The translations under genes were made by a program, and so were the position numbers. Under the pieces are notes generated by a model. That model searched no databases. It saw nothing but the letters and a program-made list of their open reading frames with translations, and was not told where the DNA came from. 64,000 nucleotides of DNA from a virus, in IMG/VR virus record IMGVR_UViG_3300030099_006944, positions 96,001-160,000 of that record. One strand, 5' to 3'. How positions within the stretch are numbered: the first letter of the stretch is position 1; every line of letters starts with the position of its first letter. Below, one piece after another: positions 3,725 through 62,543 of this stretch.

Positions 3725-4286
3725 CATCACCCCCGAAGAAGAAGCAACTCCGCAAGAACAAGAAAACTCAATTAAGATCGAAATCATCGAGAAAGATGAG
3801 TTGGAATTCAATCTTAACCTGAGGAGTGCCTTAAATGGGGATCTTATGATTTTAGATCACAAGGACATTGATATCGTTGTACAACCAACCTCTAAAAAAG
3901 TAGTCACTTTTGCAAAAGAGATAACATCAGACGCAGTGTATGGTGCCGAATCTAGACTTCTAGAATATTTGAGAAGACAAGGTGTTATAAATTATGATTC
4001 AATTCAAGGTGGAAACGTATATGGATCTTTGGAAGGTCAGATTATGGACTCCAAATCTCATGATCCAATAAAAGTGGCTCTGCTTAAAATTTCTGAATGG
4101 ATGGAAACAGAGAAACCTTATATTTCTGGTACCACGGCATATGACGATATGCAGGATGATGCTTTGATCGATCCGGACAACGAATATTCGACAGAATTAG
4201 GTCAAGTACCACACGCTGCCGAAAAGGGCTCCATTGTTCAGAACAACCTTTTCGCTCCATACCTATATGGAAGATACACTTACTGA
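3708..4286 (+). CDS. Hypothetical protein
   Basis: 192-aa ORF with a GGAGG RBS, overlapping its neighbours. Confidence 0.7.
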   Translation: MSVKINITPEEEATPQEQENSIKIEIIEKDELEFNLNLRSALNGDLMILDHKDIDIVVQPTSKKVVTFAKEITSDAVYGAESRLLEYLRRQGVINYDSIQGGNVYGSLEGQIMDSKSHDPIKVALLKISEWMETEKPYISGTTAYDDMQDDALIDPDNEYSTELGQVPHAAEKGSIVQNNLFAPYLYGRYTY

Positions 4287-4996
4287 TGAAAAAACTACTA
4301 GAAAATTTTAAGAGCTTTTTGTCTGAGGACGAAAAAGAACCAATACCTTTACCGGACACTTCTAACATTGGACTTTTTCATGATCCGGATATAGACAATC
4401 ATGAGTTAATATTATATTATCTGACTCCGCGCGGACCCTTTCCATTTGCCGCATGCGGTATAGATCGCCTCAGCGAAAACAAGAAAGGTGAACAATGTAT
4501 ACCTGAGACATGGCATATGTCTTGGATATATGTTCATGAAACCTTTCAAGGTTCGGGTTGGAGTAAAATTTTATACGGACTGTCATTTAATTTGGTTAAT
4601 AAAGAAGGCGCAGGGCTAACATCCGATCATTGGTCTTCCACGTCAGACGATGCAAAAAGCCGCGCTTGGGATAAAATGATATCTCGTAATCAACTGGTTC
4701 CCAGAAAAACTCCGGGTACTCCTCCGACCGGAGGCCACTCTGAATTCGATTATGGTAAGGCCGGATTTAAGAAGACCCCTTTGGATCCCATGGATGACTG
4801 TCGCGAACCCGGAGGCGGAAAAGCAGCAACATCAACTAGTTGGATAATGAAAGGACACAGCTACTTTGATTCGATTTATGATGATCTAACTGAAAATCAT
4901 GATCTGCTTATGTCAGCAGTACCCAATCGTGAACAAGTGGAACGAAGACTATCAGACGTTGCCGCTGATGAATTTGAAGTTGCTTATAGGGGGTAA
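4286..4996 (+). CDS. GNAT-like (acetyltransferase-fold) protein with a putative capsid-targeting leader
   Basis: MSWIYVHETFQGSGWSKILY resembles GNAT motif A (V-x-x-x-x-Q/R-G-x-G-x-x-x-x-L). N-terminus is MKKLLENFKSFLSE. Confidence 0.5.
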   Translation: MKKLLENFKSFLSEDEKEPIPLPDTSNIGLFHDPDIDNHELILYYLTPRGPFPFAACGIDRLSENKKGEQCIPETWHMSWIYVHETFQGSGWSKILYGLSFNLVNKEGAGLTSDHWSSTSDDAKSRAWDKMISRNQLVPRKTPGTPPTGGHSEFDYGKAGFKKTPLDPMDDCREPGGGKAATSTSWIMKGHSYFDSIYDDLTENHDLLMSAVPNREQVERRLSDVAADEFEVAYRG

Positions 4997-5417: not shown

Positions 5418-6026
5418 ATGTCTAAAACTTTATTAAGAGAATTCTATGCTTTATGTGAGGGTGGTATTTGTCAAGATCTTTTAACCGAAAGAGAAAAAAG
5501 GGAAATGGAAAATGGCGTTCTTTATTTATCAGGTCGTTTGCAAACTGCTGACAAGCAAAACGGAAATGGTCGGGTCTATCCTCACGAAGTCCTCAAAAGA
5601 GAGGTCAACAACTATATGAATGTAGTCAAAGACAATCGTGCTTGTGGTGAACTTGATCATCCGGATGATTCTGTTGTTAATCTTAAAAACGTTTCCCACA
5701 TCATAACTGATATATGGTGGGAAGGAAAGGATGTTATGGGCAAAATCAAAGTGCTCGATACCCCTTCCGGAAGGATCTTGAAAGATCTAGTGAATGCTGG
5801 TGTTAAACTCGGAATATCATCCAGAGGGTTAGGGTCAGTTAGAGAGAGTGCCGGGCAGACTGTTGTTGAAAATGATTTTCAATTAATTTGTTTTGATATG
5901 GTTTCCGAACCTTCAACTCCAAATGCTTATGTCTATCCAAAAGGGCAACAAAATGTATCTTCTAGGCTCAGAGAAGTTAAAGAAAATAGCATTAATGATC
6001 TATTTAAAAAGATCCTAGGAGATTAA
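5418..6026 (+). CDS. Prohead core protease (T4 gp21-like)
   Basis: Motifs QNGNGRVYP, GELDHP, GVKLGISSRGLGS (catalytic Ser) and FDMVSEPSTPNA. Confidence 0.93.
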   Translation: MSKTLLREFYALCEGGICQDLLTEREKREMENGVLYLSGRLQTADKQNGNGRVYPHEVLKREVNNYMNVVKDNRACGELDHPDDSVVNLKNVSHIITDIWWEGKDVMGKIKVLDTPSGRILKDLVNAGVKLGISSRGLGSVRESAGQTVVENDFQLICFDMVSEPSTPNAYVYPKGQQNVSSRLREVKENSINDLFKKILGD

Positions 6027-6030
6027 ATAA

Positions 6031-6270
6031 ATGAAAATAAAAAAAGACCGATTGGTACAAATTATCAAAGAGGAGCTTGATGATTATCAAATGTCAATGG
6101 CACAAGATGATCCGCAAGAATTCATGGCAGGAATGAAATCACAAGAAAGAATCAAGCAGATTGATATTCTAATCGCGGAACTACAAAGAGAAAAAGAAAT
6201 GTTGTTGATGAACATTGATTCTGGTGAGGTCACCTTTGATCAATCAAATACGCGGAGCCCAAATGAATAA
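6031..6270 (+). CDS. Small protein with leader MKIKKDRLVQIIKEE (putative internal head protein)
   Basis: GGAG RBS; leader pattern shared with 48242 and 57875. Confidence 0.55.
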   Translation: MKIKKDRLVQIIKEELDDYQMSMAQDDPQEFMAGMKSQERIKQIDILIAELQREKEMLLMNIDSGEVTFDQSNTRSPNE

Positions 6271-14977: not shown

Positions 14978-15008
14978 TATTTCATTTATTCCTTTTCTTG
15001 ACAACAAC

Positions 15009-15016
15009 ACTATTTA
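15009..15016 (+). promoter_or_regulatory. Putative late promoter motif ACTATTTA (scaffold-MCP operon)
   Basis: 40 nt upstream of the scaffold ATG. Confidence 0.6.
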
Positions 15017-15048
15017 ATAAGAATAATAGTCTATTAGGAGATGTGTTA

Positions 15049-16358: not shown

Positions 16359-18221
16359 ATGTCTATTGTAGAAAAATTAACCGAAGGTATCGTGAACCGC
16401 GATATGGCCCAAGAAGGCGCTGCTCTTCTTAACAAATGGGGTCAAACTGGTTTGCTTGAAGGCCTTCAAAATGATCACCAGAAGAGCACTATGGCTCGTC
16501 TTTTGGAAAACCAAGCGAAGGAACTTCTTCGTGAGGCTTCTTCATTGGGTGCTGGTGACGTAGAAGGTTTCGCTGCTGTTGCCTTCCCTATCGTTCGTCG
16601 TGTATTCGCCGGACTTATTGCTAACGATCTTGTTAGTGTTCAGCCGATGTCACTCCCTAGTGGACTGATCTTCTTCCTTGACTTCTCTTTTGGAGATCAA
16701 GAAGGTGGAAACGGTGTTTCTGGCTCTCGTATGGGTAACACACAAGGTGGTACTGAATCTATCTATGGTACTGATAAACTTGGTTCAGAAGTTATCACCG
16801 GTGTTGGACTTACAGATAGTCTCAAAGGTGATCTTTCTGGTCCCGGCCGAAGTGGTATGGTCGGATACGCTTACGCTTCTCCAAGTGGAAGTAACGTTGC
16901 TGCTTTTACTAACAGCGATCACATTAAAGTACGCTCTGCTTTCAAACTAGATGGAAGTGTATCTGAGACTCGTGCTAAGTACATTCAATATGATCCGGAT
17001 CTACTAGCATCAACTACTTTGGGTGTTGTCGTTGTCGACGTTAACCAAGCGGAGATTGAAAGTGTTGCAGACGCCGCTGACGCAGATTTTGACAACTTGT
17101 CTGCTTTTGTATTTGATAAAGCAGCACTTCTTACTTACTTAAATGGAGTAACTGGTGGTTCTGCAATTGGCACTATTACTGCTGTTGCTAATATATCTCA
17201 AGTACGTCGTCTAACTAGAAAAGTTGCTGCTGCTGATTCCGCTACTGGTGCCGCTGCTGTGCGTTTTGTCATCTCTTTGGACGAACCAGCACAAATCACA
17301 ACAGAATCTGATACAGCAACTAATGGTGCTGGTGACCTTGCTATTGGAAAACTAAGTTTCCCAATCGTAGACCACCTTCCTGCTGCTGGTACTGTTGGAG
17401 CCGTTGGTTCTTCTAGTAACAACTTTGCTTTGGAAGGCTCCGAGAATATTCCGGAAATCGACATCAAGGTAGATTCAACTGCCATCACAGCGCAAACCAA
17501 GAAGTTGAAAGCCAAGTGGACTCCTGAATTGGGTCAAGACTTGAACGCTTACCACAACTTGGATGCTGAGGTTGAGTTGACTTCTATTCTTTCTGAGCAA
17601 ATCGCTCTGGAAATCGATCGCGAAATTCTTTCTGACTTGGTACGTGGTGCTACCGCTGCTACTTATTACTGGTCTCGTTCTCCGGGTCTCTTCGTTAACC
17701 GTTCAACTGGTGCGGAATTGGGCGCTACTGCTGCTGCTCCTGACTTCACCGGTACTGTTAGTGAATGGTATGAGACTCTCATTGAAACTATCAATGATGT
17801 TTCTGCTCAGATCCACAGAAAGACTCTTCGTGGTGGTGCTAACTATGTTGTTGTGTCTCCTGAGGGCGCTAACATTCTCGAATTCACTTCTGGATTCCGT
17901 GCTAATGTTACTGCTGACGCTGACAAAGGCGACATCGGCGCTGTTAAGGCTGGTTCATTGAGTCGTAAGTTTGACGTTATCGTTGATCCTTACTTCCCAC
18001 GTAACCTTATATTGGTTGGTCGTAAAGGTTCTTCTTTCCTTGAAAGTGGATACGTTTATGCTCCATACGTGCCTCTGCAAACTACACCAACAATCTTCGG
18101 GCCTGAAGACTTCGTTCCTCGTAAAGGGGTAATGACTCGTTATGCCAAGAAGATGGTTCGTCCTGATATGTATGGCCTTGTCATCATTCGCGGATTGCTC
18201 GGTGAGTCCGGTGCTTCCTAA
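16359..18221 (+). CDS. Major capsid protein (T4 gp23-like)
   Basis: Motifs VSVQPMSLPSGLIF, KLKAKWTPELGQDLNAYHNLDAEVELTSILSEQIALEIDREI and YAPYVPLQ...GVMTRY. Confidence 0.96.
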   Translation: MSIVEKLTEGIVNRDMAQEGAALLNKWGQTGLLEGLQNDHQKSTMARLLENQAKELLREASSLGAGDVEGFAAVAFPIVRRVFAGLIANDLVSVQPMSLPSGLIFFLDFSFGDQEGGNGVSGSRMGNTQGGTESIYGTDKLGSEVITGVGLTDSLKGDLSGPGRSGMVGYAYASPSGSNVAAFTNSDHIKVRSAFKLDGSVSETRAKYIQYDPDLLASTTLGVVVVDVNQAEIESVADAADADFDNLSAFVFDKAALLTYLNGVTGGSAIGTITAVANISQVRRLTRKVAAADSATGAAAVRFVISLDEPAQITTESDTATNGAGDLAIGKLSFPIVDHLPAAGTVGAVGSSSNNFALEGSENIPEIDIKVDSTAITAQTKKLKAKWTPELGQDLNAYHNLDAEVELTSILSEQIALEIDREILSDLVRGATAATYYWSRSPGLFVNRSTGAELGATAAAPDFTGTVSEWYETLIETINDVSAQIHRKTLRGGANYVVVSPEGANILEFTSGFRANVTADADKGDIGAVKAGSLSRKFDVIVDPYFPRNLILVGRKGSSFLESGYVYAPYVPLQTTPTIFGPEDFVPRKGVMTRYAKKMVRPDMYGLVIIRGLLGESGAS

Positions 18222-47973: not shown

Positions 47974-48249
47974 ATGTATTTAGAGCCACATAATCGTCAC
48001 CTTTTGGTGCACCCCTTAGATGATAAGGAAGAGAAAAAAGGCTTTGTCCTTCCGGAGGGTTACAAGACTCCCCAAACACCACATGTTATATGTGACGTTC
48101 TAGGAAAAGCAGAAGATTGCAAGGTAACAGTGAACATAGGAGATCGAATTGTAGTAGAAAGAACTATGTTGCACGAGATAAAAGCAATGGGAGAAACTAA
48201 TTATCTAGTGCTAGAAAATTATGTTTATGGGAGACTACAAGATGAATAA
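47974..48249 (+). CDS. groES: GroES/Cpn10-like co-chaperonin
   Basis: LEPHNRHLLV, GFVLP mobile loop, VNIGDRIVV, LVLENYVYGRL; start at ATG 47974 with a GGAGGT RBS. Confidence 0.8.
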   Translation: MYLEPHNRHLLVHPLDDKEEKKGFVLPEGYKTPQTPHVICDVLGKAEDCKVTVNIGDRIVVERTMLHEIKAMGETNYLVLENYVYGRLQDE

Positions 48250-49069
48250 GAAACAACTAAAAGAAATGATCAAACAGGTTATACTTGAAAACAGAAAGAA
48301 ATCTGTTCTCTTGGAGACCCCTCAATTACATGAAGCAACTTTTGCAAAAGCAGCAGATTATATAGACAACAAGAAACTACCATTCTTTATTGTGTCTGCT
48401 TTTCGTGGAGAACGCGGAACAAAATACAGTAGAAAAAACATATCAGCCGCTGGTGATGTTAAAGATTTCTTAAAATCTAAGGGATTGTCATATACCATAG
48501 TGGATGGTGGCTATACTGAGAAAAAGAGAGACAAAATAACGAAAGAACCACTTAAAAACCCTGAAACAGGTGATCCGGTTTACAGTGTTGAGGAAGAAGA
48601 GAGTTATTTGGTGTTTGGGGATGTACCTCATTACGGAGACACATCAGCAGCAGTTACCGATGTACAAGAACTTTTTGAGATTGCCAAAGAAGCCTGTCTT
48701 ATTGATCCTGAGAATCCCCAAGAAACTTTCAGTTTCGGATATCCAGTCGATATAATAGAACCGGGTTCAAAAGAACCTGTTCGCGAAATGCGCATAGCTT
48801 TATATGAAAACGATGCTCCGAGTTATGCACGGGAACATATGTTTACCGAATGGGGTGGTCCTTGGAATTCTTTCGCAAAGATGATGAGTGATGTTGGAGC
48901 TTACACTAAGATCAGAGGCACAAAAGGTGCTTTCGCTGAAGAAAAACTTGAAGAAGCTAGGAACATGAAAGTCAACAGTGTCATGGATGGATACAAAAAA
49001 CAACATTATGTTGATTACTGGACAAAAATGAAGGCCCGATGGGATCACGAAAACAAAAAGAGGTCTTAA
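48242..49069 (+). CDS. Hypothetical protein with a capsid-targeting-like leader; possibly DUF3293-like core
   Basis: Leader MNKKQLKEMIKQVILE; FFIVSAFRG...N...L...G..Y..V.G...EESYLV. Confidence 0.55.
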   Translation: MNKKQLKEMIKQVILENRKKSVLLETPQLHEATFAKAADYIDNKKLPFFIVSAFRGERGTKYSRKNISAAGDVKDFLKSKGLSYTIVDGGYTEKKRDKITKEPLKNPETGDPVYSVEEEESYLVFGDVPHYGDTSAAVTDVQELFEIAKEACLIDPENPQETFSFGYPVDIIEPGSKEPVREMRIALYENDAPSYAREHMFTEWGGPWNSFAKMMSDVGAYTKIRGTKGAFAEEKLEEARNMKVNSVMDGYKKQHYVDYWTKMKARWDHENKKRS

Positions 49070-49783: not shown

Positions 49784-50021
49784 GAAAGGGGACCTGTTCA
49801 AGTTCAACCAGTGCGGAACAGATTTGTTCTGTCATATATCGGGTTCCGTAGCCCTGATTGTTACTGATCCCGTGAAGATGTATGAATATGATTTTCATGA
49901 AATACCTGAGAAAAGAGAATATTATGTATACGATATAATAGTTTGTGGGCAACTATTTATGGAGATCCCGGAAGAGTTTTTAAAAAGGATAGCGTTAAAT
50001 GATGAAGAAGATACTAAATGA
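49776..50021 (+). CDS. Small KOW/SH3-like hypothetical protein
   Basis: MFKKGDLF pattern. Confidence 0.5.
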   Translation: MFKKGDLFKFNQCGTDLFCHISGSVALIVTDPVKMYEYDFHEIPEKREYYVYDIIVCGQLFMEIPEEFLKRIALNDEEDTK

Positions 50022-50520
50022 ATGGAAAAAATATTTGAAAGAAGGAACAGAATTTAATTACGAAGCCTTCATTAAAGAGTTTAATGAAATAATTGGTAAT
50101 TCCGTTTCTTATGATTCGTCCTTTTTCCGACTAGTACAAAAGAAGTACAATCCGTCTTCTCTAGAATCACTATCAGGACTGAAGCCTAGGAAAAAAAATA
50201 AAATCATCGGCCAACTTAATGCTGGCATGACTTACACTTGGCTGGAATATGTTGGTATACAAGGGGTGAAATTTGTAATTGAATACAAAGTCTCCAAATA
50301 TCTGAGTGAAGCGAAACCTGAAAATGTTGAATACCTGAAAAATAATTTTGAACAATTTTTCGAGATTTTGGCCCAATCATCTGCAACAAGACCAGATATA
50401 GAGTTTAACACTAGACATGTGGCTCTTGCTGGCCAATTAGGAGATTGGTGGATAGCCAATGATGGCTTGGAAATGTTTAAAGATGTGTTCGCAGCAAAAC
50501 TAAACATATCAGAGGTGTAA
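49999..50520 (+). CDS. Hypothetical protein with a capsid-targeting-like leader
   Basis: Leader MKKILNEWKKYLKE; late motif at 49952. Confidence 0.6.
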   Translation: MMKKILNEWKKYLKEGTEFNYEAFIKEFNEIIGNSVSYDSSFFRLVQKKYNPSSLESLSGLKPRKKNKIIGQLNAGMTYTWLEYVGIQGVKFVIEYKVSKYLSEAKPENVEYLKNNFEQFFEILAQSSATRPDIEFNTRHVALAGQLGDWWIANDGLEMFKDVFAAKLNISEV

Positions 50521-54550: not shown

Positions 54551-55428
54551 AATATCTATTACCTTTTTTATTAGCTTGCACGGAAGTGTCTATTAACAAA
54601 ATACCAACAGATCCTGTTGATACATCGAAACCCATAGCGGATACCACAGAACCTTCACAGCCGGCCTCTGAGCCCTCTGTGGAGCCTATGGAAGGTATCG
54701 GAGGGTATGTACACTACTATCTTCGTCAAGTGGCTTGTCCGGCTTGTATGGGCGAATCAAATGAGATTACGGTTGAGTTTGATGCAAGGTTTCACGATAG
54801 AACTTTTGATACCTACACAAGGCACATTCCCGAACAAGGTCAGTGCACCCAAAGTATAACTCAGATATGGCCAAACTTACCCCTAATAGATATGGGATCA
54901 GAAATAAAAGCCAGAGCTAACAATTCGACTATTCATGCGTACCGAACAAGCCAAAATAATTATTTTTATGCTTGGTATACAGATGCCTCTTATATAAGAG
55001 ACACTGTACACTCTATATCTCGCGAGGATAACTATGAATTTGCAGAGTTCACATCGTTTCATGGTTTCGATTACATTGAGCCTTATGAGTTACGCTTTGT
55101 AGATCCTTCGTATGCTTTTGCTGCTCCGATATACCGTTCTGGTGCGACTTTCTGGTGGGCTCCCTATGGTACCAACACTACCTTTACAATAACGCTAGCA
55201 GTATATACTCCTGACGGCTCATCGTTGTTAGGTTATGTTGCCTGTTCAGGTGGTGACTCTGGCATGATGACCGTTCCCGGACAATATTTGTCCTCTTATC
55301 CCTATGGGGCTCTTGTCGCTGTGCATATGGCTCGGCACAAAGTTGAGCTAGTACCATGGGAAGAACAAAACACTTTCCTTGAAACACATATGGAGTGGGA
55401 AGTAATAGGAACAGGACATATAGAATGA
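54547..55428 (+). CDS. Putative lipoprotein
   Basis: MKYLLPFLLA-C lipobox followed by a Pro/Ser/Glu/Thr linker (EPSQPASEPSVEP). Confidence 0.7.
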   Translation: MKYLLPFLLACTEVSINKIPTDPVDTSKPIADTTEPSQPASEPSVEPMEGIGGYVHYYLRQVACPACMGESNEITVEFDARFHDRTFDTYTRHIPEQGQCTQSITQIWPNLPLIDMGSEIKARANNSTIHAYRTSQNNYFYAWYTDASYIRDTVHSISREDNYEFAEFTSFHGFDYIEPYELRFVDPSYAFAAPIYRSGATFWWAPYGTNTTFTITLAVYTPDGSSLLGYVACSGGDSGMMTVPGQYLSSYPYGALVAVHMARHKVELVPWEEQNTFLETHMEWEVIGTGHIE

Positions 55429-55727
55429 CAAAGAAGCAAAAAGACATATTAATAAAAGATAGACAGAAGATCGGAAGACCAAAGAAATACAAAGTTGTTT
55501 TCTACAATGACGACTATACTCCTATGTTCTTGGTCACTTCGATATTGATAGAAGTATTTAATAAAGGATTACCCGAAGCACAATCGATTATGATGAGGGT
55601 ACACAAACAAGGAAAAGGAGTAGCAGGTGTCTATTCAAAAGAAATCGCACAAACAAAAGTTGAAACAACAAAAATGTATGCAAGAGAAGCAGGATACCCG
55701 CTCCACGCCGAAGCAGAACCAGAGTAG
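55425..55727 (+). CDS. clpS: ClpS N-degron adaptor
   Basis: YKVVFYNDDYTPM, VF.K...A..IMMRVH.QGKGVAGVY..EIAQTKV...AR..GYPL. Confidence 0.93.
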   Translation: MTKKQKDILIKDRQKIGRPKKYKVVFYNDDYTPMFLVTSILIEVFNKGLPEAQSIMMRVHKQGKGVAGVYSKEIAQTKVETTKMYAREAGYPLHAEAEPE

Positions 55728-56489: not shown

Positions 56490-57572
56490 ATGATTTTTAT
56501 ATGGAACTATGCCTTTAGGCATTTAATGAAAAAATATTGGGGAAACAGGTACAGATCGATACCAGTTTTCCATATGGAACTGGCAGGAGATATGCTGGGT
56601 AATTTTAGACATGATAAGAATGGTTTCAACACTATTTGTTTAGCCAACAACCAAGGACTTACAGATAGGCAATTGATGGGTGTTCTATTGCACGAAATGT
56701 GCCACCACGTTGCTTATGAGAAGCATGGAATGGATATTGATGCTCATGGGGCCGAATGGGAAACCGAGATGAAATTTGTAGGGTTTGAATATCCCATAGA
56801 CCAAGACACAGATGGCACAGAATTCTTTTCCGAAGAAGAGTATCAAGAGATACTTCGGTTATTACCCGGAGAACAAGAGACCTTTGAGTGGACTGACTCT
56901 TTGACTTTTATGAAAAAAATGGAAAAGAATTGTGTTGACTTAGTTTTAACCGACCCGCCATATATCATAAGTAAACCTTCGGGATTCAAAAGTGTTAAAG
57001 AAGGAGTGGAGCGTTTTGCTGTGTCGACCGAACATGGAGAATGGGACAAAGAGGAAAATTTTTCTCTGAAAGATTTGCGAGATTCCGTAAAAGAGTATTA
57101 TCGTGTATTAAAGAAGCACGGTACTGCTATTGTCTTTTGCGATCTCTGGAAGATCACAGACGTAAAGCGTATAATGGAAGAAGTAGGCTTTAAGCAAATT
57201 CGCTTCATAGAGTGGCTCAAAACAAATCCGGTCCCTCTCAATTCGAGCAGGAACTATCTTACAAACGCCAGAGAGGTCGCTCTCCTAGGCGTAAAGGTCA
57301 GCAAGCCCACGTTTCATTCGAGCTATGATAATGGGATTTATCAATTACCGATTTGCCACGAGAAAGGTAGGTTTCACCCAACACAAAAGCCTCTTATGCT
57401 GATGCAACTGTTAATAGAAAAACATAGTAACCCGGGAGACGTGGTATTGGACACATTCGCCGGAGCAGCGACCACGCTGCTCGCCGCCAAAAATTTAGGC
57501 CGTGGATTCCTTGGTTGTGAACTTGACGAAGAATTCTTTGTTAAAGCAGAGAAACGACTCTTCGATCTCTAA
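56490..57572 (+). CDS. SprT-like metalloprotease fused to a beta-class amino-DNA methyltransferase
   Basis: N-terminal LLHEMCHH...HGAEW (HExxH zincin); C-terminal LTDPPY, HPTQKP, VLDTFAGAATT, GCEL. Confidence 0.8.
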   Translation: MIFIWNYAFRHLMKKYWGNRYRSIPVFHMELAGDMLGNFRHDKNGFNTICLANNQGLTDRQLMGVLLHEMCHHVAYEKHGMDIDAHGAEWETEMKFVGFEYPIDQDTDGTEFFSEEEYQEILRLLPGEQETFEWTDSLTFMKKMEKNCVDLVLTDPPYIISKPSGFKSVKEGVERFAVSTEHGEWDKEENFSLKDLRDSVKEYYRVLKKHGTAIVFCDLWKITDVKRIMEEVGFKQIRFIEWLKTNPVPLNSSRNYLTNAREVALLGVKVSKPTFHSSYDNGIYQLPICHEKGRFHPTQKPLMLMQLLIEKHSNPGDVVLDTFAGAATTLLAAKNLGRGFLGCELDEEFFVKAEKRLFDL

Positions 57573-57602
57573 TTATTAAAGCAATATTAGGAGGGATTAT
57601 GA

Positions 57603-57878
57603 ATGGAGGCGATAATTGAGGGCTTGGCCCAATATGGACCATTGGGTCTTTGGACTGCATCTTTGCTTTGGATGAACTGGCAGCAACGCAAAGATCAAAA
57701 AGAAGATGAAGAAAGAGCAGCCGATCGATTGCGGTATTACCAAGAAAACATCATAACAAGACTTGAAAATCAAGAAAAAATGCTCGAAAGGGCACTAATT
57801 AAGTTGGACGACGGTCTTAGTGCTATGCGTGAAAAATATGCCGAAGATCGTATAATGCGAATGAAGGGTGACAAATGA
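57603..57878 (+). CDS. Small membrane-anchored coiled-coil protein (holin-like)
   Basis: LAQYGPLGLWTASLLWM hydrophobic N-terminus followed by a charged coiled coil. Confidence 0.45.
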   Translation: MEAIIEGLAQYGPLGLWTASLLWMNWQQRKDQKEDEERAADRLRYYQENIITRLENQEKMLERALIKLDDGLSAMREKYAEDRIMRMKGDK

Positions 57879-59452
57879 AAAAAAAGACATTATATAAATT
57901 AATCGAACAAGTCTTAAATGAGGCTGAAATTAAAGAACTAATGGCATCGGCAGACCCAGATTATATTGCGCAAGCTGTCGACATTGCCGTTATGCTTGGA
58001 GACGAAGAAAAACAACAAGTCATTGATGGATTTTTGCAGTTAAAGGCAGAAGATTTTTTATACAGTGCACACACCTTAATGGAAGAAGACGATGAATTCT
58101 CAGTAAGGCAGATGATGCCGATTTACGATACAGTCAAATACACACTCCTTAGTGTCTTTAGAAAACGCAGAATGCCTACTATCACTAGAAACCAAGACGC
58201 GTCACCATGGCTGTTGGAGCAAGCTTATTTGTTTCTGAATAGACTACATCAGAAAAAAGCGGCAGACAGAGACATGCTGTATTTAGCAAAAAACCCAGCA
58301 ACACCAGTTAAAGTATTGAATAGATTGAAAACATACTGGATGGCCGAGGTTAGAAAATCTGCCGAGAATAACTTATCATCACGTGATCCATTAGAAGAAA
58401 AAAAGAAGCGCAAGAAGAAAGAAAAGACCAAGAAGGATGCTTGCTATCATAAGGTGAAGTCGCGTTATGATGTTTGGCCGTCTGCTTATGCTTCCGGCGC
58501 TCTTGTTAAATGTCGCAAAGTCGGAGCAAAGAATTGGGGTAACTCAAAGAAAGAATCTTTGGGCGAAGCAGAAATTACCGACGACGAAAAAGAAGAACTG
58601 AAAGATATTTCAAAGCAACTAAAAGGCGCCGTTAAGGCTCACGGTAAGCAGGCAAAGACAATTGACAAAGCAATTAAAAAAGAAGGCAAGAAAAACTGCG
58701 GCTGCGGTCAAGATCCCTGTAAGACATATGGTATTCAAGAACAAAAAACTGAGGAACTTGAAGAGCGATGCCAAAAGGGATATAAGACCCACGACACGCA
58801 AAAAACAAAAGAAATGTTTGGAAGAACATATCGTAATTGTGTAAAAGCCGAAGAGGGCCAACTAGACGAAGAGGGATTGAAGGCTTGGTTTGATGATGCC
58901 GATGGTGATGGACAAAGCGGCTGGGAGCAAATTGGCGGTAAATACGATGGTAAACCGTGTGCCAAGCAGCCCGGACAAAAAACCAAGCCAAAATGTGCAT
59001 CCCCAGAAAAAGCAGCATCAATGACCAAAAAAGAAAGAGATAGTGCTGCTAGAAGAAAAAGAAAAAAAGATCCGAATCCAAATCGCAAAGGTAAAGCAAA
59101 AAACGTTAACACAGACCCAAAGAAAGAATCTCTATATAGAATCATCGAAGCGGTCATCGAAGAAATGAATAACGAACTTGCCGAGGCGGAACTGGAAGAA
59201 AAGAAAAATTCAAAGTGCACCAAGGCTACAAAGAAAGCATCATCCACCCGCAAAGGAAAGAAGTGGATGAAGTGTGTAAAGAGCGACAGTGGTGGATACA
59301 AAAGAATTCACTGGGGACAAAAGGGCGTAAGAGTTACCGGTAAATCTGGTAACACAAAAAGAAAGAAATCATTTAAGGCTAGACACAATTGTTCCAAGGC
59401 AAAATCGAATACACCACAAGGCCAAGCGTGTAAAGATTGGGCGGAAGAATAA
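57875..59452 (+). CDS. Modular basic, Cys-containing protein with a capsid-targeting-like leader
   Basis: Short K/C-rich modules separated by LEE/LGE/IQE/LDE; see findings. Confidence 0.7.
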   Translation: MKKKTLYKLIEQVLNEAEIKELMASADPDYIAQAVDIAVMLGDEEKQQVIDGFLQLKAEDFLYSAHTLMEEDDEFSVRQMMPIYDTVKYTLLSVFRKRRMPTITRNQDASPWLLEQAYLFLNRLHQKKAADRDMLYLAKNPATPVKVLNRLKTYWMAEVRKSAENNLSSRDPLEEKKKRKKKEKTKKDACYHKVKSRYDVWPSAYASGALVKCRKVGAKNWGNSKKESLGEAEITDDEKEELKDISKQLKGAVKAHGKQAKTIDKAIKKEGKKNCGCGQDPCKTYGIQEQKTEELEERCQKGYKTHDTQKTKEMFGRTYRNCVKAEEGQLDEEGLKAWFDDADGDGQSGWEQIGGKYDGKPCAKQPGQKTKPKCASPEKAASMTKKERDSAARRKRKKDPNPNRKGKAKNVNTDPKKESLYRIIEAVIEEMNNELAEAELEEKKNSKCTKATKKASSTRKGKKWMKCVKSDSGGYKRIHWGQKGVRVTGKSGNTKRKKSFKARHNCSKAKSNTPQGQACKDWAEE

Positions 59453-59499: not shown

Positions 59500-59531
59500 A
59501 TATACATAACACAAACACATTGGAGGACACA

Positions 59532-60473
59532 ATGACTAACTATCGACTAGGCTATGCCTGTATAAACATGACGCTTGGTGCGCAAAAGCCCAAGGTTACA
59601 ACTAACCGCTCTATGATCAAGCGAACTTTCAAAGAGAAAGGTATCGCTTATGCTTCTGAGCTAGCTCTGCAAAATGTCAAGGACTTGAAGTCAATCCTTG
59701 AATGGAATTTGAAGAATGACATCACGTTCTTTCGCATGTCATCAGATATCTTCCCATGGGCTTCCGAGTATCAACTCGAAGACCTACCTGACTTTACTGA
59801 GATCGAAGAGATTTTATTTGAATGTGGTCTGTTTGCCGAAGAACACAACATGCGCCTCACAACGCATCCCGGCCCATTCAACAAACTTTGCTCACCAAAC
59901 GAGCAAGTGGTGCTAAACACCATCCGTGATCTAGAAATTCACGGTAAACTAATGGACTTGTTGTGCCAACCACGCACACCAAAAGCCAAAATCAACATTC
60001 ACGTTGGAGGTGCATACAATGATAAACCTATGGCCCTTGGCAATTTTTGCCGGAACTTCGCTAAGTTATCAGATGCTGTACGGTCTCGACTGACTGTAGA
60101 GAACGACGACAAAGAGTCGCTATATTCAACCCAAGAGTTGTACGATGGTATATTCAAAAAGATAGGCATCCCCATTGTACATGACTACCACCATCATCAT
60201 TTTTGTACTGGTGGTTTGTCTCAACTGGATGCCGTTGAATTGGCTCTCTCTACGTGGGGTGATGTTCGCCCTGTTGTTCATTACAGTCAGTCACGTTCCG
60301 TGGAGCACAACGACCCCAAGATCAGAGCCAATGCTCACTCAGACTCTTACTGGACTCCGATTGATACCTTTGGTTTTGATATGGACGTGATGCTAGAATG
60401 TAAACACAAGGAGCTAGGTCTATTCAAAATGCGAGAATTAATGGCGGAAAATTTACAATTAGCAGCGAAATAA
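59532..60473 (+). CDS. uvsE: UV-damage endonuclease (UVDE)
   Basis: LGYACIN, FFRMSSDIFP, RLTTHPGPF, RLTVENDDK, VHDYHHH, HYS..R...HSD, DVMLECKHKE. Confidence 0.95.
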   Translation: MTNYRLGYACINMTLGAQKPKVTTNRSMIKRTFKEKGIAYASELALQNVKDLKSILEWNLKNDITFFRMSSDIFPWASEYQLEDLPDFTEIEEILFECGLFAEEHNMRLTTHPGPFNKLCSPNEQVVLNTIRDLEIHGKLMDLLCQPRTPKAKINIHVGGAYNDKPMALGNFCRNFAKLSDAVRSRLTVENDDKESLYSTQELYDGIFKKIGIPIVHDYHHHHFCTGGLSQLDAVELALSTWGDVRPVVHYSQSRSVEHNDPKIRANAHSDSYWTPIDTFGFDMDVMLECKHKELGLFKMRELMAENLQLAAK

Positions 60474-60504: not shown

Positions 60505-60531
60505 ATATATAACACAAACATGGAGGACAAC

Positions 60532-61125
60532 ATGGATTATATAAAACCATTTAAAGAAGCACGTAAAGTGGAACTGCAATTAAACGAAGAAGGTAAGTCT
60601 GGGAACCGCTCTTCACAAAGGACAGATGTTCTCAATGATTATACCATTGAGCTAATCAAAAAACACATCCCAGAGAACAACTTGAATCAGTGGAGATTTG
60701 AAACCGAGGAAAACATAGATTGTTCTCGCGGTGACACTTTTTCAATTGACGTCCTGTGCTATCACAACGATCAATTGAAGTGTTTGCTTCTGTTGAAGGC
60801 TATCGGCAGTTCCTATAATAAAAATAGGCACAACTACGCAAACACTGTTGAAGGTGAGTGTGCACGAATCTTTGATTACGAAGAGAGAGAAGATGGTTTA
60901 TCTGTTATTTTCATCGACTGGATTCCCAACAAGGTCCCAGCAGGAACCAAAATGGAAACTCCAAATATTCCCGATTTAACAAAATCAGAGAAAAGGTGGA
61001 ATAGTTTTTTAGCCGACAGAGATTCGTCTGTTTCTTTCTGCAAAGTTAGATTTGATTTGGGGACATACAAAAACATATCCGGTGCTGATAAGTTAAAAGA
61101 ATCTTTGGTTAGGAGTTTTTCATGA
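60532..61125 (+). CDS. Putative PD-(D/E)xK restriction endonuclease
   Basis: E...IDV....LLLKA pattern; translationally coupled (ATGA overlap) to a methyltransferase. Confidence 0.45.
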   Translation: MDYIKPFKEARKVELQLNEEGKSGNRSSQRTDVLNDYTIELIKKHIPENNLNQWRFETEENIDCSRGDTFSIDVLCYHNDQLKCLLLLKAIGSSYNKNRHNYANTVEGECARIFDYEEREDGLSVIFIDWIPNKVPAGTKMETPNIPDLTKSEKRWNSFLADRDSSVSFCKVRFDLGTYKNISGADKLKESLVRSFS

Positions 61126-62543
61126 AAGAATTATATGAATATGAAGATCTTTTAGACAAAGACAAAAAGAAGAAGATGGGAATCACTTATACTCCCGAAA
61201 AAATTGTGCATTATATTAATGAAGCATGCTTAAAAGCGTGGACCGGCAAAAATCCCCCAAAAGTTGTTGATTTTAGCGCCGGAACAGGCGTTTTTTTGGT
61301 AGATATGGCTAAAAAGATAAGCGAGAGATACAACATTTCTCTTGGTGAAGTGTATAGGCAATATATATTTGCAAATGATTTGGACGTAGAAGCAGTAAAT
61401 CTGTTTAGTTCTACCACTGGCTGTAAAAACATAACCACCGTTGATGGACTAGGTTTCGATTTATCAGAATATGATATAATCATTGGTAACCCACCATATG
61501 TAAAGATACAGAATCTTTCCAAAGAAGATCAGACAAGAATAAGAAATTTTTCTTGGTGCAAAACTGGAAATACCGATCTTTATATTGCTTTTTGCGAAAT
61601 GATGTGTACGTCTGGTAAGATTTTTGGTTTTATTTGCCCGAACAGTTGGCAAAAGACCGCAACAGGACAAGAAATGCGTAATTGGTTCTTGAATTCAAAA
61701 ATTATTTCTACATTTGTTGACTTCCGACACAAGAAAGTCTTCGATGTCTCAGCGTACACTAGTATACTGTTGTCCGATTCTATCAAAAAGGAATCTTATG
61801 TGTTTCAAACGGATTTGGACTCTGACACGGAAACAAAAAAATTTGATGAAGTAACAGCAGATGACTTCTTTTTGTATACAACCGAGAACACCTTTATAAA
61901 ACAGAACAAAGAGAAGAGTAATTTATTGTTCGATAAGTGCTCAATGAAAGTGGGTATAGCAACACTGGCTGATGGTGTGTATTTCCTCAAAGATTGTAAA
62001 ATTTCCGGGAAACTTGTGTTGTTCGGCGAAGAGAAGATAGAAAAAGCCGTGGTTAAACATTGCTATAAGGCTTCTAAATTAGTCAGATATGATGATGACA
62101 CTCATGACATGATTATATATCCATATGACAACAAGAAGAGTCTTATACCTGAAAGAACCATGAAGAAAAAATACCCATTAGCGTATAAATATCTAGAAAA
62201 ACACAAGGAAAAACTATTACAACGTGATGCAGGAAAGTTCAAAAAGAAGTGCAACGAAGGTAAAGCGGTCTGGTATGAATACGGAAGAACACAGGGCTTG
62301 GGATTGAAATCCAAAAAGATTTTGATATCTCCCATAATGTGTAAAAAATATTTTATGTCGATTGATGATGGTCTCTTTATGTCTGGTTATTGCTTAGAGG
62401 TCAAAAAAGACTCTGATTATGAAGATGTACTAGCTGCAATTCAGCAAGAAGATTTTAAAAAATGGGTGCACCTATTTGGATCCCCAAAGAGCGGCGGATA
62501 TTATTCCTTGAACAAAGCCGCATTGAAAAAATATCGTTATTAA
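61122..62543 (+). CDS. Gamma-class N6-adenine DNA methyltransferase (Eco57I/TaqI-like)
   Basis: YTP, VVDFSAGTGVFL, ANDLD, IIGNPPY, DLYIAF, C-terminal WYEYGR target-recognition segment. Confidence 0.9.
   Translation: MKELYEYEDLLDKDKKKKMGITYTPEKIVHYINEACLKAWTGKNPPKVVDFSAGTGVFLVDMAKKISERYNISLGEVYRQYIFANDLDVEAVNLFSSTTGCKNITTVDGLGFDLSEYDIIIGNPPYVKIQNLSKEDQTRIRNFSWCKTGNTDLYIAFCEMMCTSGKIFGFICPNSWQKTATGQEMRNWFLNSKIISTFVDFRHKKVFDVSAYTSILLSDSIKKESYVFQTDLDSDTETKKFDEVTADDFFLYTTENTFIKQNKEKSNLLFDKCSMKVGIATLADGVYFLKDCKISGKLVLFGEEKIEKAVVKHCYKASKLVRYDDDTHDMIIYPYDNKKSLIPERTMKKKYPLAYKYLEKHKEKLLQRDAGKFKKKCNEGKAVWYEYGRTQGLGLKSKKILISPIMCKKYFMSIDDGLFMSGYCLEVKKDSDYEDVLAAIQQEDFKKWVHLFGSPKSGGYYSLNKAALKKYRY

What the first reader, a model, noticed from the sequence alone, without database searches (positions are those of the whole stretch)
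57875..59452. Beads-on-a-string polyprotein of basic Cys-containing modules separated by protease-like L/I-x-E sites
Seen: leader ...VLNE; a helical domain ending PLEE; module KKDACYHKVKSRYDVWPSAYASGALVKCRKVGAKNWGN ending SLGE; a helix plus NCGCGQDPCKTYG ending IQE; ELEE; RCQKGYK...YRNCVK ending QLDE; GLKAWF...KPCAK...KPKCA...RRKRK ending in a second leader-like YRIIEAVIEE; ELEE; and KCTK...WMKCVK...HWGQKG...RKKSFKARHNC...ACKDW. Each module is small, very basic and has paired Cys; acidic L/I-x-E sites mark the borders. A late motif lies at 57568. Known: gp21-type proteases cut after (I/L)-x-E. Inference: a head-packaged polyprotein processed into several cationic peptides that condense DNA or act as injected effectors, and that evolves by module shuffling.
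Basis: partly seen in the sequence, partly recalled or inferred. Interest (0 to 1): 0.85.

Follow-up and report, generated by a model that had tools for sequence, protein, structure and literature searches.

The report
Shuffled basic-module head-cargo polyprotein
A marine T4-type phage encodes a 525-residue chain of small, lysine-rich, cysteine-paired modules, each preceded by the cutting motif of the phage's own head protease and led by a T4-like "load me into the capsid" peptide, so it is probably cut into several DNA-associated peptides inside the head, although no cut has been measured.

Summary
ORF 57875-59452 (+) encodes the stated sequence. It has 14 (L/I)-x-E sites, against 4.4 +/- 1.9 in shuffles, and none lies inside a conserved module.

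The protein belongs to phrog_727, the cyanomyovirus T4-GC119 "structural protein" family. Members were found by mass spectrometry in S-SM1 and S-SCSM1 virions.

- **Shuffling:** among 382 relatives the same modules occur in 69 different orders.
- **Conserved sites:** an L/I-x-E, with variable x, sits directly before the module start. It lies one residue before the first Cys of module D in 58 of 78 contexts, and within 3-5 residues of module F in 41 of 46.
- **Stand-alone forms:** each carries its own leader ending in L-x-E. The target's internal "second leader" is a relic of such a fusion.
- **Protease and leaders:** the genome encodes a Peptidase_S77 (T4 gp21) protease. About nine unrelated ORFs share N-terminal leaders resembling T4's MKTYQEFIAE.

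Best reading, about 0.6: a capsid-targeted polyprotein precursor of basic internal head peptides. Packaging, cleavage and function are inferred, not shown. The first readers and follow-up agents of this scan noted similar polyproteins in other genomes. I found no published description.

The parts
57569..57575 (+). CTAATTA promoter-like motif 34 nt before the first gene of the two-gene unit
   Evidence: The same heptamer lies 23-45 nt before the starts at 7415, 13796, 19247, 27479, 48221/48242 and 52839. The neighbours 56490, 59520 and 60520 instead have TTGACA-N17-TATATT-type promoters. That it is a late promoter is inferred.
57603..57878 (+). 91-aa upstream ORF with one hydrophobic stretch and a coiled coil; its stop overlaps the target's ATG (ATGA)
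   Evidence: No Pfam family. It is absent from the closest relative, L020. Function unknown.
57875..57922 (+). N-terminal leader MKKKTLYKLIEQVLNE (aa 1-16), a candidate capsid-targeting sequence ending in L-N-E
   Evidence: Predicted helix, pLDDT about 86. A near-identical leader, MKQSDLDKLIEQVIAE, starts a 602-aa ORF elsewhere in the genome. T4 IPII and IPIII start MKTYQEFIAE|A.
57923..58399 (+). Helical, non-basic N domain (aa 17-175), ending PLEE
   Evidence: All-helical in the model, pLDDT 35-76. Among the 240 homologues then in hand, found only in P0022, joined there to module F. No Pfam or PHROG family. The Atlas gave only weak helical-repeat leads below 0.9.
58400..58567 (+). Module A precursor (aa 176-231): poly-Lys tail, then DACYHKVKSRYDVWPSAYASGALVKCRK..., ending SLGE
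   Evidence: phrog_727 E 4e-22. pLDDT 85-94, three short helices. Both Cys are invariant, 256/256 and 253/254. In 108 of 120 contexts an L/I-x-E lies upstream, separated by residues that are 71% Lys.
58568..58741 (+). Module B+C (aa 232-289): a long helix, then NCGCGQDPCKTYG, ending IQE
   Evidence: B and C usually lie next to each other, in the order B-C, in relatives. Helix pLDDT about 80. The three Cys are invariant, 96/96.
58742..58765 (+). Acidic spacer QKTEELEE (aa 290-297)
   Evidence: net charge -3, bounded by IQE and LEE.
58766..58870 (+). Module D (aa 298-332): RCQKGYKTH...YRNCVK, ending QLDE
   Evidence: In 58 of 78 distinct contexts an L/I-x-E ends one residue before the first Cys.
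58871..59149 (+). Module E (aa 333-425): EGLKAWF...GKPCAKQPGQKTKPKCA...RRKRK..., with a tail ending RIIE
   Evidence: phrog_727 E 1e-32. Core pLDDT 72-82. Cys are invariant, 318/319 and 318/318. In the 39-sequence alignment, L and E of the preceding L-x-E are conserved at 90% or more. 1849 cluster representatives match the D+E profile.
59150..59200 (+). End of the internal second leader (the leader is aa 417-442; this part is aa 426-442, AVIEE MNNELAE AELEE, with three stacked sites; its start lies in the tail of module E)
   Evidence: The same helix is the N-terminal leader of stand-alone D+E, F and A+B+C proteins, for example MNNELAEAELEE|KKNSKC in P0171. pLDDT 76-85.
59201..59449 (+). Module F (aa 443-525): KKNSKCTK...WMKCVK...HWGQKG...RHNC...ACKDW
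   Evidence: Weak DUF5754 match, 20.3 bits, below the 27.4 cut-off. phrog_7595 E 1.4e-6. Three strands plus helices. An L/I-x-E lies 3-5 residues upstream in 41 of 46 contexts.
5418..6026 (+). Prohead protease, T4 gp21 family, the presumed processing enzyme
   Evidence: phrog_207 E 3e-61, Pfam Peptidase_S77 E 1.9e-34, PDB 5JBL E 7e-21. Its own N-terminus reads MSKTLLREFYALCE.
16359..18221 (+). Major capsid protein with ELLRE|ASS near residue 59, comparable with T4 gp23 LTE|AE
   Evidence: phrog_138 E 3e-71. Sequence. The T4 site is from my own knowledge.
4286..4996 (+). Unrelated 236-aa ORF with the leader MKKLLENFKSFLSE
   Evidence: No family.
50002..50520 (+). Unrelated 172-aa ORF with the leader MKKILNEWKKYLKE
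   Evidence: No family.
48242..49069 (+). Unrelated 275-aa ORF with the leader MNKKQLKEMIKQVILE, preceded by CTAATTA at 48197
   Evidence: No family.
6031..6270 (+). 79-aa ORF next to the protease with the leader MKIKKDRLVQIIKEELDD

Best explanation
The gene encodes a polyprotein precursor of internal head proteins of a distant T4-type marine myovirus (187 kb, 39.6% GC).

**Proposed mechanism**
1. The gene is transcribed with the structural genes from a CTAATTA-type promoter.
2. The N-terminal amphipathic leader, ending L-N-E, works like the T4 capsid-targeting sequence and carries the precursor into the scaffolding core of the prohead.
3. At maturation the gp21-type protease (5418) cuts after Glu of the (L/I)-x-E sites, which sit directly before each module.
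4. The acidic leader and spacer pieces are lost.
5. Five small, strongly basic modules stay with the packaged DNA. Together they carry about +50 net charge, and each has one or two nearly invariant Cys pairs that probably form disulfide staples. They offset a share of the DNA phosphate charge and probably leave the head with the DNA.
6. New precursors arise when leader-plus-module genes fuse and their order is shuffled.

**Shown here**
- The module anatomy.
- Conservation and position of the sites.
- Module shuffling.
- The shared leaders.
- The identity of the protease.
- Virion mass spectrometry of homologues, taken from papers.

**Inferred**
- Packaging.
- Cleavage.
- DNA binding.
- Ejection.
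For: **Sites in the target**
- 14 L/I-x-E sites, against 4.4 expected. None lies inside a module.

**Sites in relatives**
- An L/I-x-E ends exactly one residue before the first Cys of module D in 58 of 78 distinct contexts.
- It ends two residues before LxxWF of module E in 65 of 128 contexts.
- It lies 3-5 residues before module F in 41 of 46 contexts.
- Before module A it is found in 108 of 120 contexts, separated only by a poly-Lys run.
- P2 takes more than ten different residues, while P3 and P1 are kept.
- 233 of 250 distinct inter-module linkers carry a site. The total is 513, against 237 in shuffles.

**Sites travel with modules**
- The site stays with its module through 69 different architectures.
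- Stand-alone module genes start with a leader that ends L-x-E right at the module start. The target's internal leader is that same leader.
- When the cyanophage-type E module lies at a protein's N-terminus, the protein begins at the very boundary that elsewhere follows hydrophobic-x-E. P3 and P1 therefore belong to the joint, not to the fold.

**Leaders**
- Nine ORFs of this genome share such leaders, against 0 in the reversed genome and 0 in five codon-shuffled genomes.
- A related 192-kb contig has three consecutive leader-bearing ORFs.
- T4 IPII and IPIII start MKTYQEFIAE|A and are Lys-rich with pI 9.3-9.5.
- The T4 capsid-targeting sequence and gp21 rules are in PMC9026906 and PMC3012670.

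**Protease**
- Peptidase_S77, matching PDB 5JBL.
- The capsid protein carries LRE|A.
- The scaffold-like ORF at 14998 has 20 sites.

**Structure**
- pTM is 0.26, with confident modules and linkers below pLDDT 50.

**Virion evidence for the family**
- T4-GC119 was detected in S-SM1 virions with 13 peptide counts (PMC3037559 Table S8).
- S-SCSM1_29, which has modules A and E, is labelled 'virion protein' in a record whose paper identified virion proteins by mass spectrometry (PMC9602691).
Against: - No cleavage, packaging or DNA binding has been measured for this protein or any relative.
- The reversed pattern E-x-(L/I) is also enriched in linkers (z 13.5 against 20.6). Part of the excess therefore reflects acidic amphipathic helices rather than a protease motif.
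- The cultured cyanomyovirus homologues examined (S-E7, P-SSM2, S-SSM5) have no leader and only 1-2 strict sites. A leader is not annotated for the virion-detected members either, so a leader is probably not needed for virion association in that lineage.
- The virion mass spectrometry does not say that the protein is inside the head.
- The gene lies far from the head genes, among early-type genes (MTase, UvdE, RM).
- The leader patterns were written after seeing the data.
- The related sequences are not independent samples.
- The structural models are only moderately confident (pLDDT 60-66), and no fold match gives a function.
Confidence: 0.6

Rival explanations
1. The protein is packaged and cut as above, but the released modules are injected effectors, for example inhibitors of host nucleases or other defences as T4 IPI* is. 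They would not be general DNA-charge neutralisers.
For: - T4 internal proteins are a hypervariable anti-restriction set that shares only the capsid-targeting sequence (PMC3012670, PMC9026906).
- Module content here is hypervariable too, with 69 architectures.
- The closest relative has a different N-terminal part at the same locus.
- Other leader-bearing ORFs of the genome are acidic and unrelated, so the leader marks cargo in general.
Against: - Individual modules are highly conserved across very distant phages, 70-95% identity for A and E. Arms-race effectors are usually not this conserved.
- Extreme Lys content and poly-Lys tails suit non-specific nucleic-acid binding.
Confidence: 0.15
2. 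The protein is not cut. It is a single multi-domain virion or DNA-associated protein whose modules are joined by acidic helical linkers. The L-x-E pattern would be a by-product of E- and L-rich amphipathic helices.
For: - E-x-(L/I) is enriched too.
- Leader-like linkers are predicted as confident helices.
- The cultured cyanophage homologues examined have few strict sites and no leader, and members of that lineage are found in virions.
Against: - Exact placement of the site at the module start, with conserved P3 and P1 and free P2, is not expected of a mere helix.
- The joint residues are absent when a module starts a protein.
- Stand-alone modules carry a removable-looking leader.
Confidence: 0.15
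3. The protein is not a virion component. It would be a late-expressed intracellular protein set that coats or compacts phage or host DNA, or works with the neighbouring SprT-methyltransferase, and is processed by some other protease or not at all.
For: - The gene lies beside DNA-metabolism genes. SprT-MTase is the upstream neighbour in both the window and L020.
- UvdE and an RM pair lie downstream.
Against: - The leader is shared with ORFs next to the portal and protease (4286, 6031).
- A structural-gene-type promoter motif precedes the unit.
- Family members are in purified virions.
- SprT is not adjacent in other relatives.
Confidence: 0.07
4. The gene encodes a multi-core precursor of ribosomally made, modified or secreted Cys peptides (RiPP-like): a leader followed by repeated cores.
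For: A leader, repeated Cys-containing units and recognisable flanking motifs resemble cyanobactin or lanthipeptide precursors (general knowledge).
Against: - The modules are 27-80 residues long, Lys-rich, conserved and partly folded.
- No modifying enzyme or export gene is nearby.
- The flanking motif is that of the phage's own head protease.
Confidence: 0.02

Closest known systems
Phage T4 internal proteins IPI, IPII, IPIII (and Alt): capsid-targeting sequence cargo processed by gp21
   Same: - A short N-terminal leader ends in (L/I)-x-E. It is shared by otherwise unrelated proteins of one phage.
- The phage has a gp21-family protease.
- The products are basic and Lys-rich (T4 IPII/IPIII have 13.5-15% Lys and pI 9.3-9.5; the target has 17% Lys and pI 9.5).
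- Gene content is hypervariable, and leader-bearing genes lie in tandem in a relative (PMC9026906, PMC3012670).
   Different: - There is no sequence similarity to the T4 proteins.
- The T4 IPs are single proteins with one leader. Here five or more unrelated small modules are chained in one precursor with a site before each.
- The modules carry invariant Cys pairs. IPII and IPIII have no Cys.
- The leaders are longer (14-16 residues) and come in two types.
- Packaging and cleavage are untested.
Cyanomyovirus T4-GC119 'structural protein' (phrog_727; e.g. S-SM1, S-E7 AYR02000, P-SSM2 PSSM2_123, S-SCSM1_29)
   Same: - Homologous modules A, D and E (phrog_727 E 6e-52).
- Members were detected in purified virions (PMC3037559 Table S8; PMC9602691).
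- Size and module content vary.
   Different: - Module order is reversed (E before A in the phrog_727 profile).
- The cultured cyanophage forms examined end in a DUF6321 module that the target lacks.
- They have no N-terminal leader and few strict L/I-x-E sites.
- They lie next to gp16, or in a mobile cassette with petE and PTOX.
- No function has been published for them.
Inner-body and ejection proteins of phiKZ-like giant phages (phiKZ, 201phi2-1, SPN3US), processed by a gp21-related protease
   Same: Many head-internal proteins are cut after Glu at short motifs, with redundant sites in the propeptide regions (PMC9026906, PMC5694885, PMC7411985). This resembles the stacked IIE/IEE/LAE/LEE sites at residues 423-442.
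   Different: - The motif differs (S/A/G-x-E, from my own knowledge).
- The proteins are large and are not chains of small basic Cys modules.
- They are not homologous to this protein.
DUF5754 / Tlr6F, a small conserved protein of polinton-like viruses, giant viruses and phages
   Same: Module F aligns to positions 6-49 of the 49-position profile (E 6e-4). Tlr6F is described as ubiquitous and uncharacterised (PMC12220804).
   Different: The score of 20.3 bits is below Pfam's cut-off of 27.4, so membership is not established. No function is known for either.

Membership tests
T4-type capsid-targeted, gp21-processed internal head proteins (a functional class) | Short N-terminal propeptide ending in (L/I)-x-E | tested here: met
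   MKKKTLYKLIEQVLNE|AE, against T4 MKTYQEFIAE|A.
T4-type capsid-targeted, gp21-processed internal head proteins (a functional class) | The same leader on several unrelated proteins of the phage | tested here: met
   Nine ORFs in the 187-kb genome, against 0 in reversed and codon-shuffled controls. The patterns were defined after seeing the data.
T4-type capsid-targeted, gp21-processed internal head proteins (a functional class) | The phage encodes a gp21-family prohead protease | tested here: met
   Peptidase_S77 E 1.9e-34 and 5JBL E 7e-21.
T4-type capsid-targeted, gp21-processed internal head proteins (a functional class) | Physical presence in the head and removal of the propeptide | not testable with these tools
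   Needs virion proteomics or a cleavage assay.
T4-type capsid-targeted, gp21-processed internal head proteins (a functional class) | Sequence homology to IPI, IPII, IPIII or Alt | tested here: not met
   No such family appeared in Pfam, PHROGs or PDB sequence searches.
Cyanomyovirus T4-GC119 / phrog_727 | Significant profile match and shared modules | tested here: met
   phrog_727 E 6.1e-52. tblastn to 365 phage records. Modules A, D and E are seen in S-E7, P-SSM2 and S-SSM5.
Cyanomyovirus T4-GC119 / phrog_727 | C-terminal DUF6321 module | tested here: not met
   DUF6321 scores 81-84 bits in S-E7, P-SSM2 and P0093, but gives no hit in the target.
Cyanomyovirus T4-GC119 / phrog_727 | Location beside gp15/gp16 or in the petE-PTOX cassette | tested here: not met
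   Here the gene lies between the SprT-MTase and UvdE genes. Compare.
Cyanomyovirus T4-GC119 / phrog_727 | Detected in purified virions | not testable with these tools
   Shown for S-SM1 and S-SCSM1 only.
Pfam DUF5754 (Tlr6F) | Score at or above the gathering threshold of 27.4 bits | tested here: not met
   20.3 bits for module F alone and 17 bits for the whole protein. P0171 scores 20.8 bits.
Pfam DUF5872 | Score at or above the gathering threshold of 27.5 bits | tested here: not met
   12.2 bits for module A.
RiPP multi-core precursor | Short cores plus neighbouring modification or export enzymes | tested here: not met
   The modules are 27-80 residues long and conserved. The neighbours are MTase, UvdE and RM genes.

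The most novel reading that the evidence does not exclude
The basic Cys-pair modules (A, B/C, D, E, F, and DUF6321) would be a pan-viral kit of tiny, disulfide-stapled genome-associated proteins. The kit would be shared by far-T4 marine phages and cyanomyoviruses (T4-GC119). Through the Tlr6F/DUF5754 and DUF5872 resemblance, it might also reach polinton-like and giant viruses. One large phage lineage would deliver the kit as capsid-targeted polyproteins that the head protease cuts apart. That would make this the first polyprotein strategy described for phage internal proteins, and would give a function to one of the commonest unknown virion genes of the ocean.
Probability: 0.2. Interest if true: 0.8.

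Novelty: new variant of a known kind. Interest (0 to 1): 0.62.

Why it matters
- **Abundance.** The family is abundant in marine viromes. More than 7,500 clusters at 90% identity turned up in each of two capped searches. 1,849 clusters at 50% identity match the D+E profile. 365 cultured phage records carry a member.
- **A testable function.** T4-GC119 has been an unexplained virion protein since 2010. This reading gives a concrete, testable function and maturation route for it.
- **A wider paradigm.** It extends the T4 model of capsid-targeted internal proteins from single proteins to shuffled polyproteins.
- **Site prediction.** Conserved cut sites can predict mature virion peptides directly from sequence.
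- **Possible tools.** The leaders and joints could serve for loading foreign proteins into heads of non-model phages.

Tried and rejected
- **Whole-protein Pfam.** Only sub-threshold DUF5754 and Mod_r hits. Per-module Pfam scans gave nothing above cut-off.
- **One global MAFFT alignment of 138 colinear homologues (A1).** It misaligned modules D and E, so I dropped it. I used per-region alignments A2 and A3 instead.
- **Fold searches of the full-length model.** BFVD returned only relatives of the same family. PDB gave nothing at E <= 0.001. The PDB sequence search gave nothing either.
- **Atlas feature search of the N domain.** Only weak leads below 0.9, to helical repeats (LRV/HEAT).
- **The canonical T4 late promoter TATAAATA.** It is not enriched (6 copies against 4.6 expected) and is absent upstream.
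- **CTAATTA total count.** It is not above chance (17 against 13.3). Only its placement before start codons is telling.
- **Protease search in the contigs of relatives.** I could not look for the protease in those contigs because the records are not held.
- **SSCSM1_92.** I first suspected it was the S-SCSM1 homologue. It has none of the modules. The true homologue is SSCSM1_29.
- **Site density across the genome.** Ranking ORFs by [LI]xE density puts the target only 19th of 146, so density alone is not distinctive.
- **Other leader-bearing ORFs.** They have no Pfam or PHROG family.
- **Jobs not spent.** I did not run a complex prediction of protease with substrate.
Full report
**Observation**

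It has 17% Lys, pI 9.5 and 13 Cys.

(L/I)-x-E occurs 14 times. Shuffles of the protein give 4.4 +/- 1.9, and none of 5000 shuffles reached 14. In residues 176-525 there are 8 sites, against 1.9 expected.

Cutting after every such Glu would give five basic pieces:
- 176-231, net +14
- 232-289, net +2
- 298-332, net +2
- 333-425, net +10
- 443-525, net +22

Each piece has 2-4 Cys. The cuts would also release short acidic pieces such as QKTEELEE, AVIEE, MNNELAE and AELEE.

**The phage**

The window lies at 96001-160000 of a single 187,355-bp contig with 39.6% GC. It carries these head genes:
- A T4-type portal at 979.
- A gp21-family prohead protease at 5418: phrog_207 E 3e-61, Pfam Peptidase_S77 E 1.9e-34, PDB 5JBL E 7e-21.
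- An E-rich, scaffold-like ORF at 14998 with 20 sites.
- A 620-aa major capsid protein at 16359.

The nearest cultured relatives of the capsid protein and protease are Flavobacterium phage immuto, Microcystis phage Mel-JY01 and Rhodothermus phage RM378, at 40-49% identity. This is therefore a far-T4 marine myovirus, not a cyanomyovirus.

The capsid protein has ELLRE|ASS near residue 59. This is comparable with LTE|AE of T4 gp23 (my own knowledge) and ILSE|T of S-SSM5 gp23.

**The family**

The protein matches phrog_727 (E 6e-52), a family of unknown function. By tblastn it matches 365 phage records, nearly all cyanomyoviruses. There the gene is Sullivan's cluster T4-GC119.

Two experimental points about the family come from papers:
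- T4-GC119 was detected in purified S-SM1 virions with 13 peptide counts. It is absent from S-PM2 and was not detected in Syn9 (PMC3037559 Table S8).
- The S-SCSM1 homologue SSCSM1_29 carries modules A and E. It is labelled 'virion protein' in a record whose paper identified virion proteins by mass spectrometry (PMC9602691).

No function has been published for the family. I found no paper that describes it as a processed polyprotein.

**Modules and shuffling**

I cut the target into these parts:
- N domain (residues 17-175)
- A (186-224)
- B+C (232-286)
- D (298-324)
- E (333-412)
- an internal leader-like helix (417-442)
- F (446-522)

I then located these parts in homologues by BLAST. Among 382 proteins from three searches there are 69 different orders. 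Examples are E-A-D-B-C, B-C-A-E-F, D-A-E-F, E-D-C-B-A, D-E, A-B-C and F alone.

In the phrog_727 profile, E precedes A. In the target, A precedes E.

B and C usually lie next to each other, in the order B-C. Among the first 240 homologues the N domain recurs only in P0022, fused there to F.

The closest relative, P0002, is 90% identical over the shared part and sits at the same locus after the SprT-methyltransferase gene. It has a different N-terminal part and lacks the 91-aa upstream ORF.

A profile of D+E finds 1849 cluster representatives at 50% identity. The module sits anywhere from residue 3 to residue 560 in proteins of 90-850 residues.

Module shuffling is therefore shown.

**The sites**

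Sites are almost never found inside modules A, C, D, E and F: 0-0.002 per residue. In the 15 residues upstream of a module they occur at 0.04-0.10 per residue.

Measured from sequence anchors in distinct contexts:

| Module | Position of the nearest upstream L/I-x-E | Contexts |
|---|---|---|
| D | ends one residue before the first Cys | 58 of 78 |
| E | ends two residues before LxxWF | 65 of 128 |
| F (KCTK form) | 3-5 residues before the anchor | 41 of 46 |
| F (AEYQGRKV form) | two residues before the anchor | 15 of 23 |
| A | present upstream; the residues between are 71% Lys | 108 of 120 |

In the 39-sequence alignment of D+E proteins, the L and E of both joints are conserved at 90% or more. 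The middle residue takes many values.

233 of 250 distinct linkers hold a site. The total is 513, against 237 in shuffles, z 20.6. One caution applies: E-x-(L/I) is also enriched (z 13.5). Part of the excess comes from acidic amphipathic helices, so exact placement is the stronger argument.

Cultured cyanomyovirus proteins have only 1-2 strict sites and no leader. Their E module begins ..KSGDsSLhDWF. In 66 internal contexts, the residue just before it is Glu in 54, and P3 is V/I/L/F/M in 50. Seven proteins start exactly at that boundary.

The joint residues therefore lie outside the fold. This is what a protease site predicts, here with a looser P3.

**Leaders**

Stand-alone forms each begin with a leader such as MEITREQLQQIIKEELEAVLDE| that ends right at the module. 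These forms are D+E of about 150 aa, F of 95-100 aa and A+B+C of about 130 aa. P0171 starts MNNELAEAELEE|KKNSKC, which is the internal segment 431-447 of the target.

A second leader type, MK.lFENW..yL.E, starts many relatives.

In this genome, nine ORFs with no detectable similarity to one another or to known families begin with one of the two types:
- 4286: MKKLLENFKSFLSE
- 50002: MKKILNEWKKYLKE
- 48242
- 6031
- the target
- four outside the window, one of which starts MKQSDLDKLIEQVIAE

The reversed genome and five codon-shuffled genomes give none. None of the nine has a known family.

A related 192-kb contig has three leader-bearing ORFs in a row. T4 IPII and IPIII begin MKTYQEFIAE|A. The first ten residues of IPIII suffice for head targeting, and residues 8 and 10 govern cleavage (PMC9026906).

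**Structure**

AlphaFold on the whole protein gives pTM 0.26, so there is no global fold. Local elements are confident:
- leader helix, pLDDT about 86
- module A, 85-94, three short helices
- B helix, about 80
- internal leader, about 80
- F, 59-85, three strands plus helices

Linkers fall below 50. The E core reaches 72-82 in a separate model. No match in BFVD or PDB gives a function.

Cys pairs are nearly invariant in A, C, D and E. The first pair of F is Cys at both positions in about 60 aligned copies and non-Cys in about 20-35. This pattern fits disulfide staples.

**Expression**

The target's ATG overlaps the stop of a 91-aa ORF, and CTAATTA lies 34 nt before that ORF. Seven or eight of the 12 plus-strand copies of this heptamer lie 23-45 nt before start codons. 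Three of these starts (7415, 19247, 27479) lie in the block that also holds the portal and capsid genes. Two precede other leader-bearing ORFs (48242, 52839).

The flanking methyltransferase, UvdE and RM genes have TTGACA-N17-TATATT promoters. That CTAATTA is the late promoter is an inference.

**Reading**

The best explanation, at about 0.6, is a capsid-targeted polyprotein precursor. The gp21-type protease would cut it into basic, Cys-stapled internal head peptides, with acidic leaders and spacers discarded. Its closest analogue is the T4 system of capsid-targeting sequence, internal proteins and gp21. It is not homologous to the T4 proteins.

Rivals:
- The products are injected effectors (0.15).
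- The protein is an uncut multi-domain virion protein (0.15).
- It is a non-virion DNA-coating protein (0.07).
- It is a RiPP-like precursor (0.02).

**Relation to other notes of this scan**

First readers and follow-up agents have noted the same kind of thing in other genomes. Examples are basic Cys-module polyproteins (e1-5659589, e1-5772490), shared leaders of the same two types (e1-5751987) and cargo polyproteins of jumbo T4-like phages (e1-5339015 and others). These are AI notes, not independent evidence. They suggest the phenomenon is widespread among uncultured T4-type phages.

**Verdict**

I class it as a new variant of a known kind, with interest 0.62.

Noticed in passing
window 57603-57878: A 91-aa ORF with one hydrophobic stretch (GPLGLWTASLLWMNW) and a coiled coil. 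It is translationally coupled to the polyprotein gene through an ATGA overlap. It is absent from the closest relative (L020). It has no family.
   Followed up: partly
window 56490-57572; L020 1890-2972: A SprT-like protease fused to an N6/N4 DNA methyltransferase is the immediate upstream neighbour of the polyprotein gene, both here and in the closest relative. It is not adjacent in more distant relatives.
   Followed up: partly
window 4286-4996, 6031-6270, 48242-49069, 50002-50520; genome 9853-12027, 85306-86598, 93439-93774, 167911-169719: Eight further ORFs with capsid-targeting-like leaders ending in L/I-x-E (or, at 6031, Asp). They share no detectable similarity and have no Pfam or PHROG family. 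They are candidate head cargo.
   Followed up: partly
L009 10001-12507: In a related 192-kb metagenomic contig, the polyprotein homologue P0030 is followed by two more ORFs that start MKHLFENWRGYLQE and MKHLLENWREFLNE. This tandem cluster recalls the T4 ipIII-ipII locus.
   Followed up: partly
proteins P0102, P0104, P0110, P0116, P0117: Some relatives carry a DUF192 (PF02643) domain between the basic modules. Non-basic folded domains can therefore also be strung into these chains.
   Followed up: no
window 14998-16335: A 445-aa ORF with 15.7% Glu and 20 L/I-x-E sites lies directly upstream of the major capsid protein. It is a likely gp22-type scaffold, although it has no PHROG hit.
   Followed up: no
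window 16359-18221: The major capsid protein has 620 residues, and the PHROG match covers mainly residues 354-598. It may carry a large insertion compared with T4 gp23.
   Followed up: no
window 40304, 43317, 44478, 47935, 56490, 59520, 60520 (upstream regions): A very regular TTGACAA-N17-TATATTAT promoter precedes the replication, repair and RM genes. This contrasts with the CTAATTA motif before genes of the structural block.
   Followed up: partly
window 55395-55727, 59520-60473, 60520-62543: A phage-borne ClpS adaptor (Pfam E 8e-28) and a UvdE UV endonuclease (E 1e-60).
   Followed up: no
L015 6627-6836 (S-SCSM1_93): A 69-aa S-SCSM1 'virion protein' shows weak similarity to module E (28% identity over 50 residues, E 0.001).
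   Followed up: no
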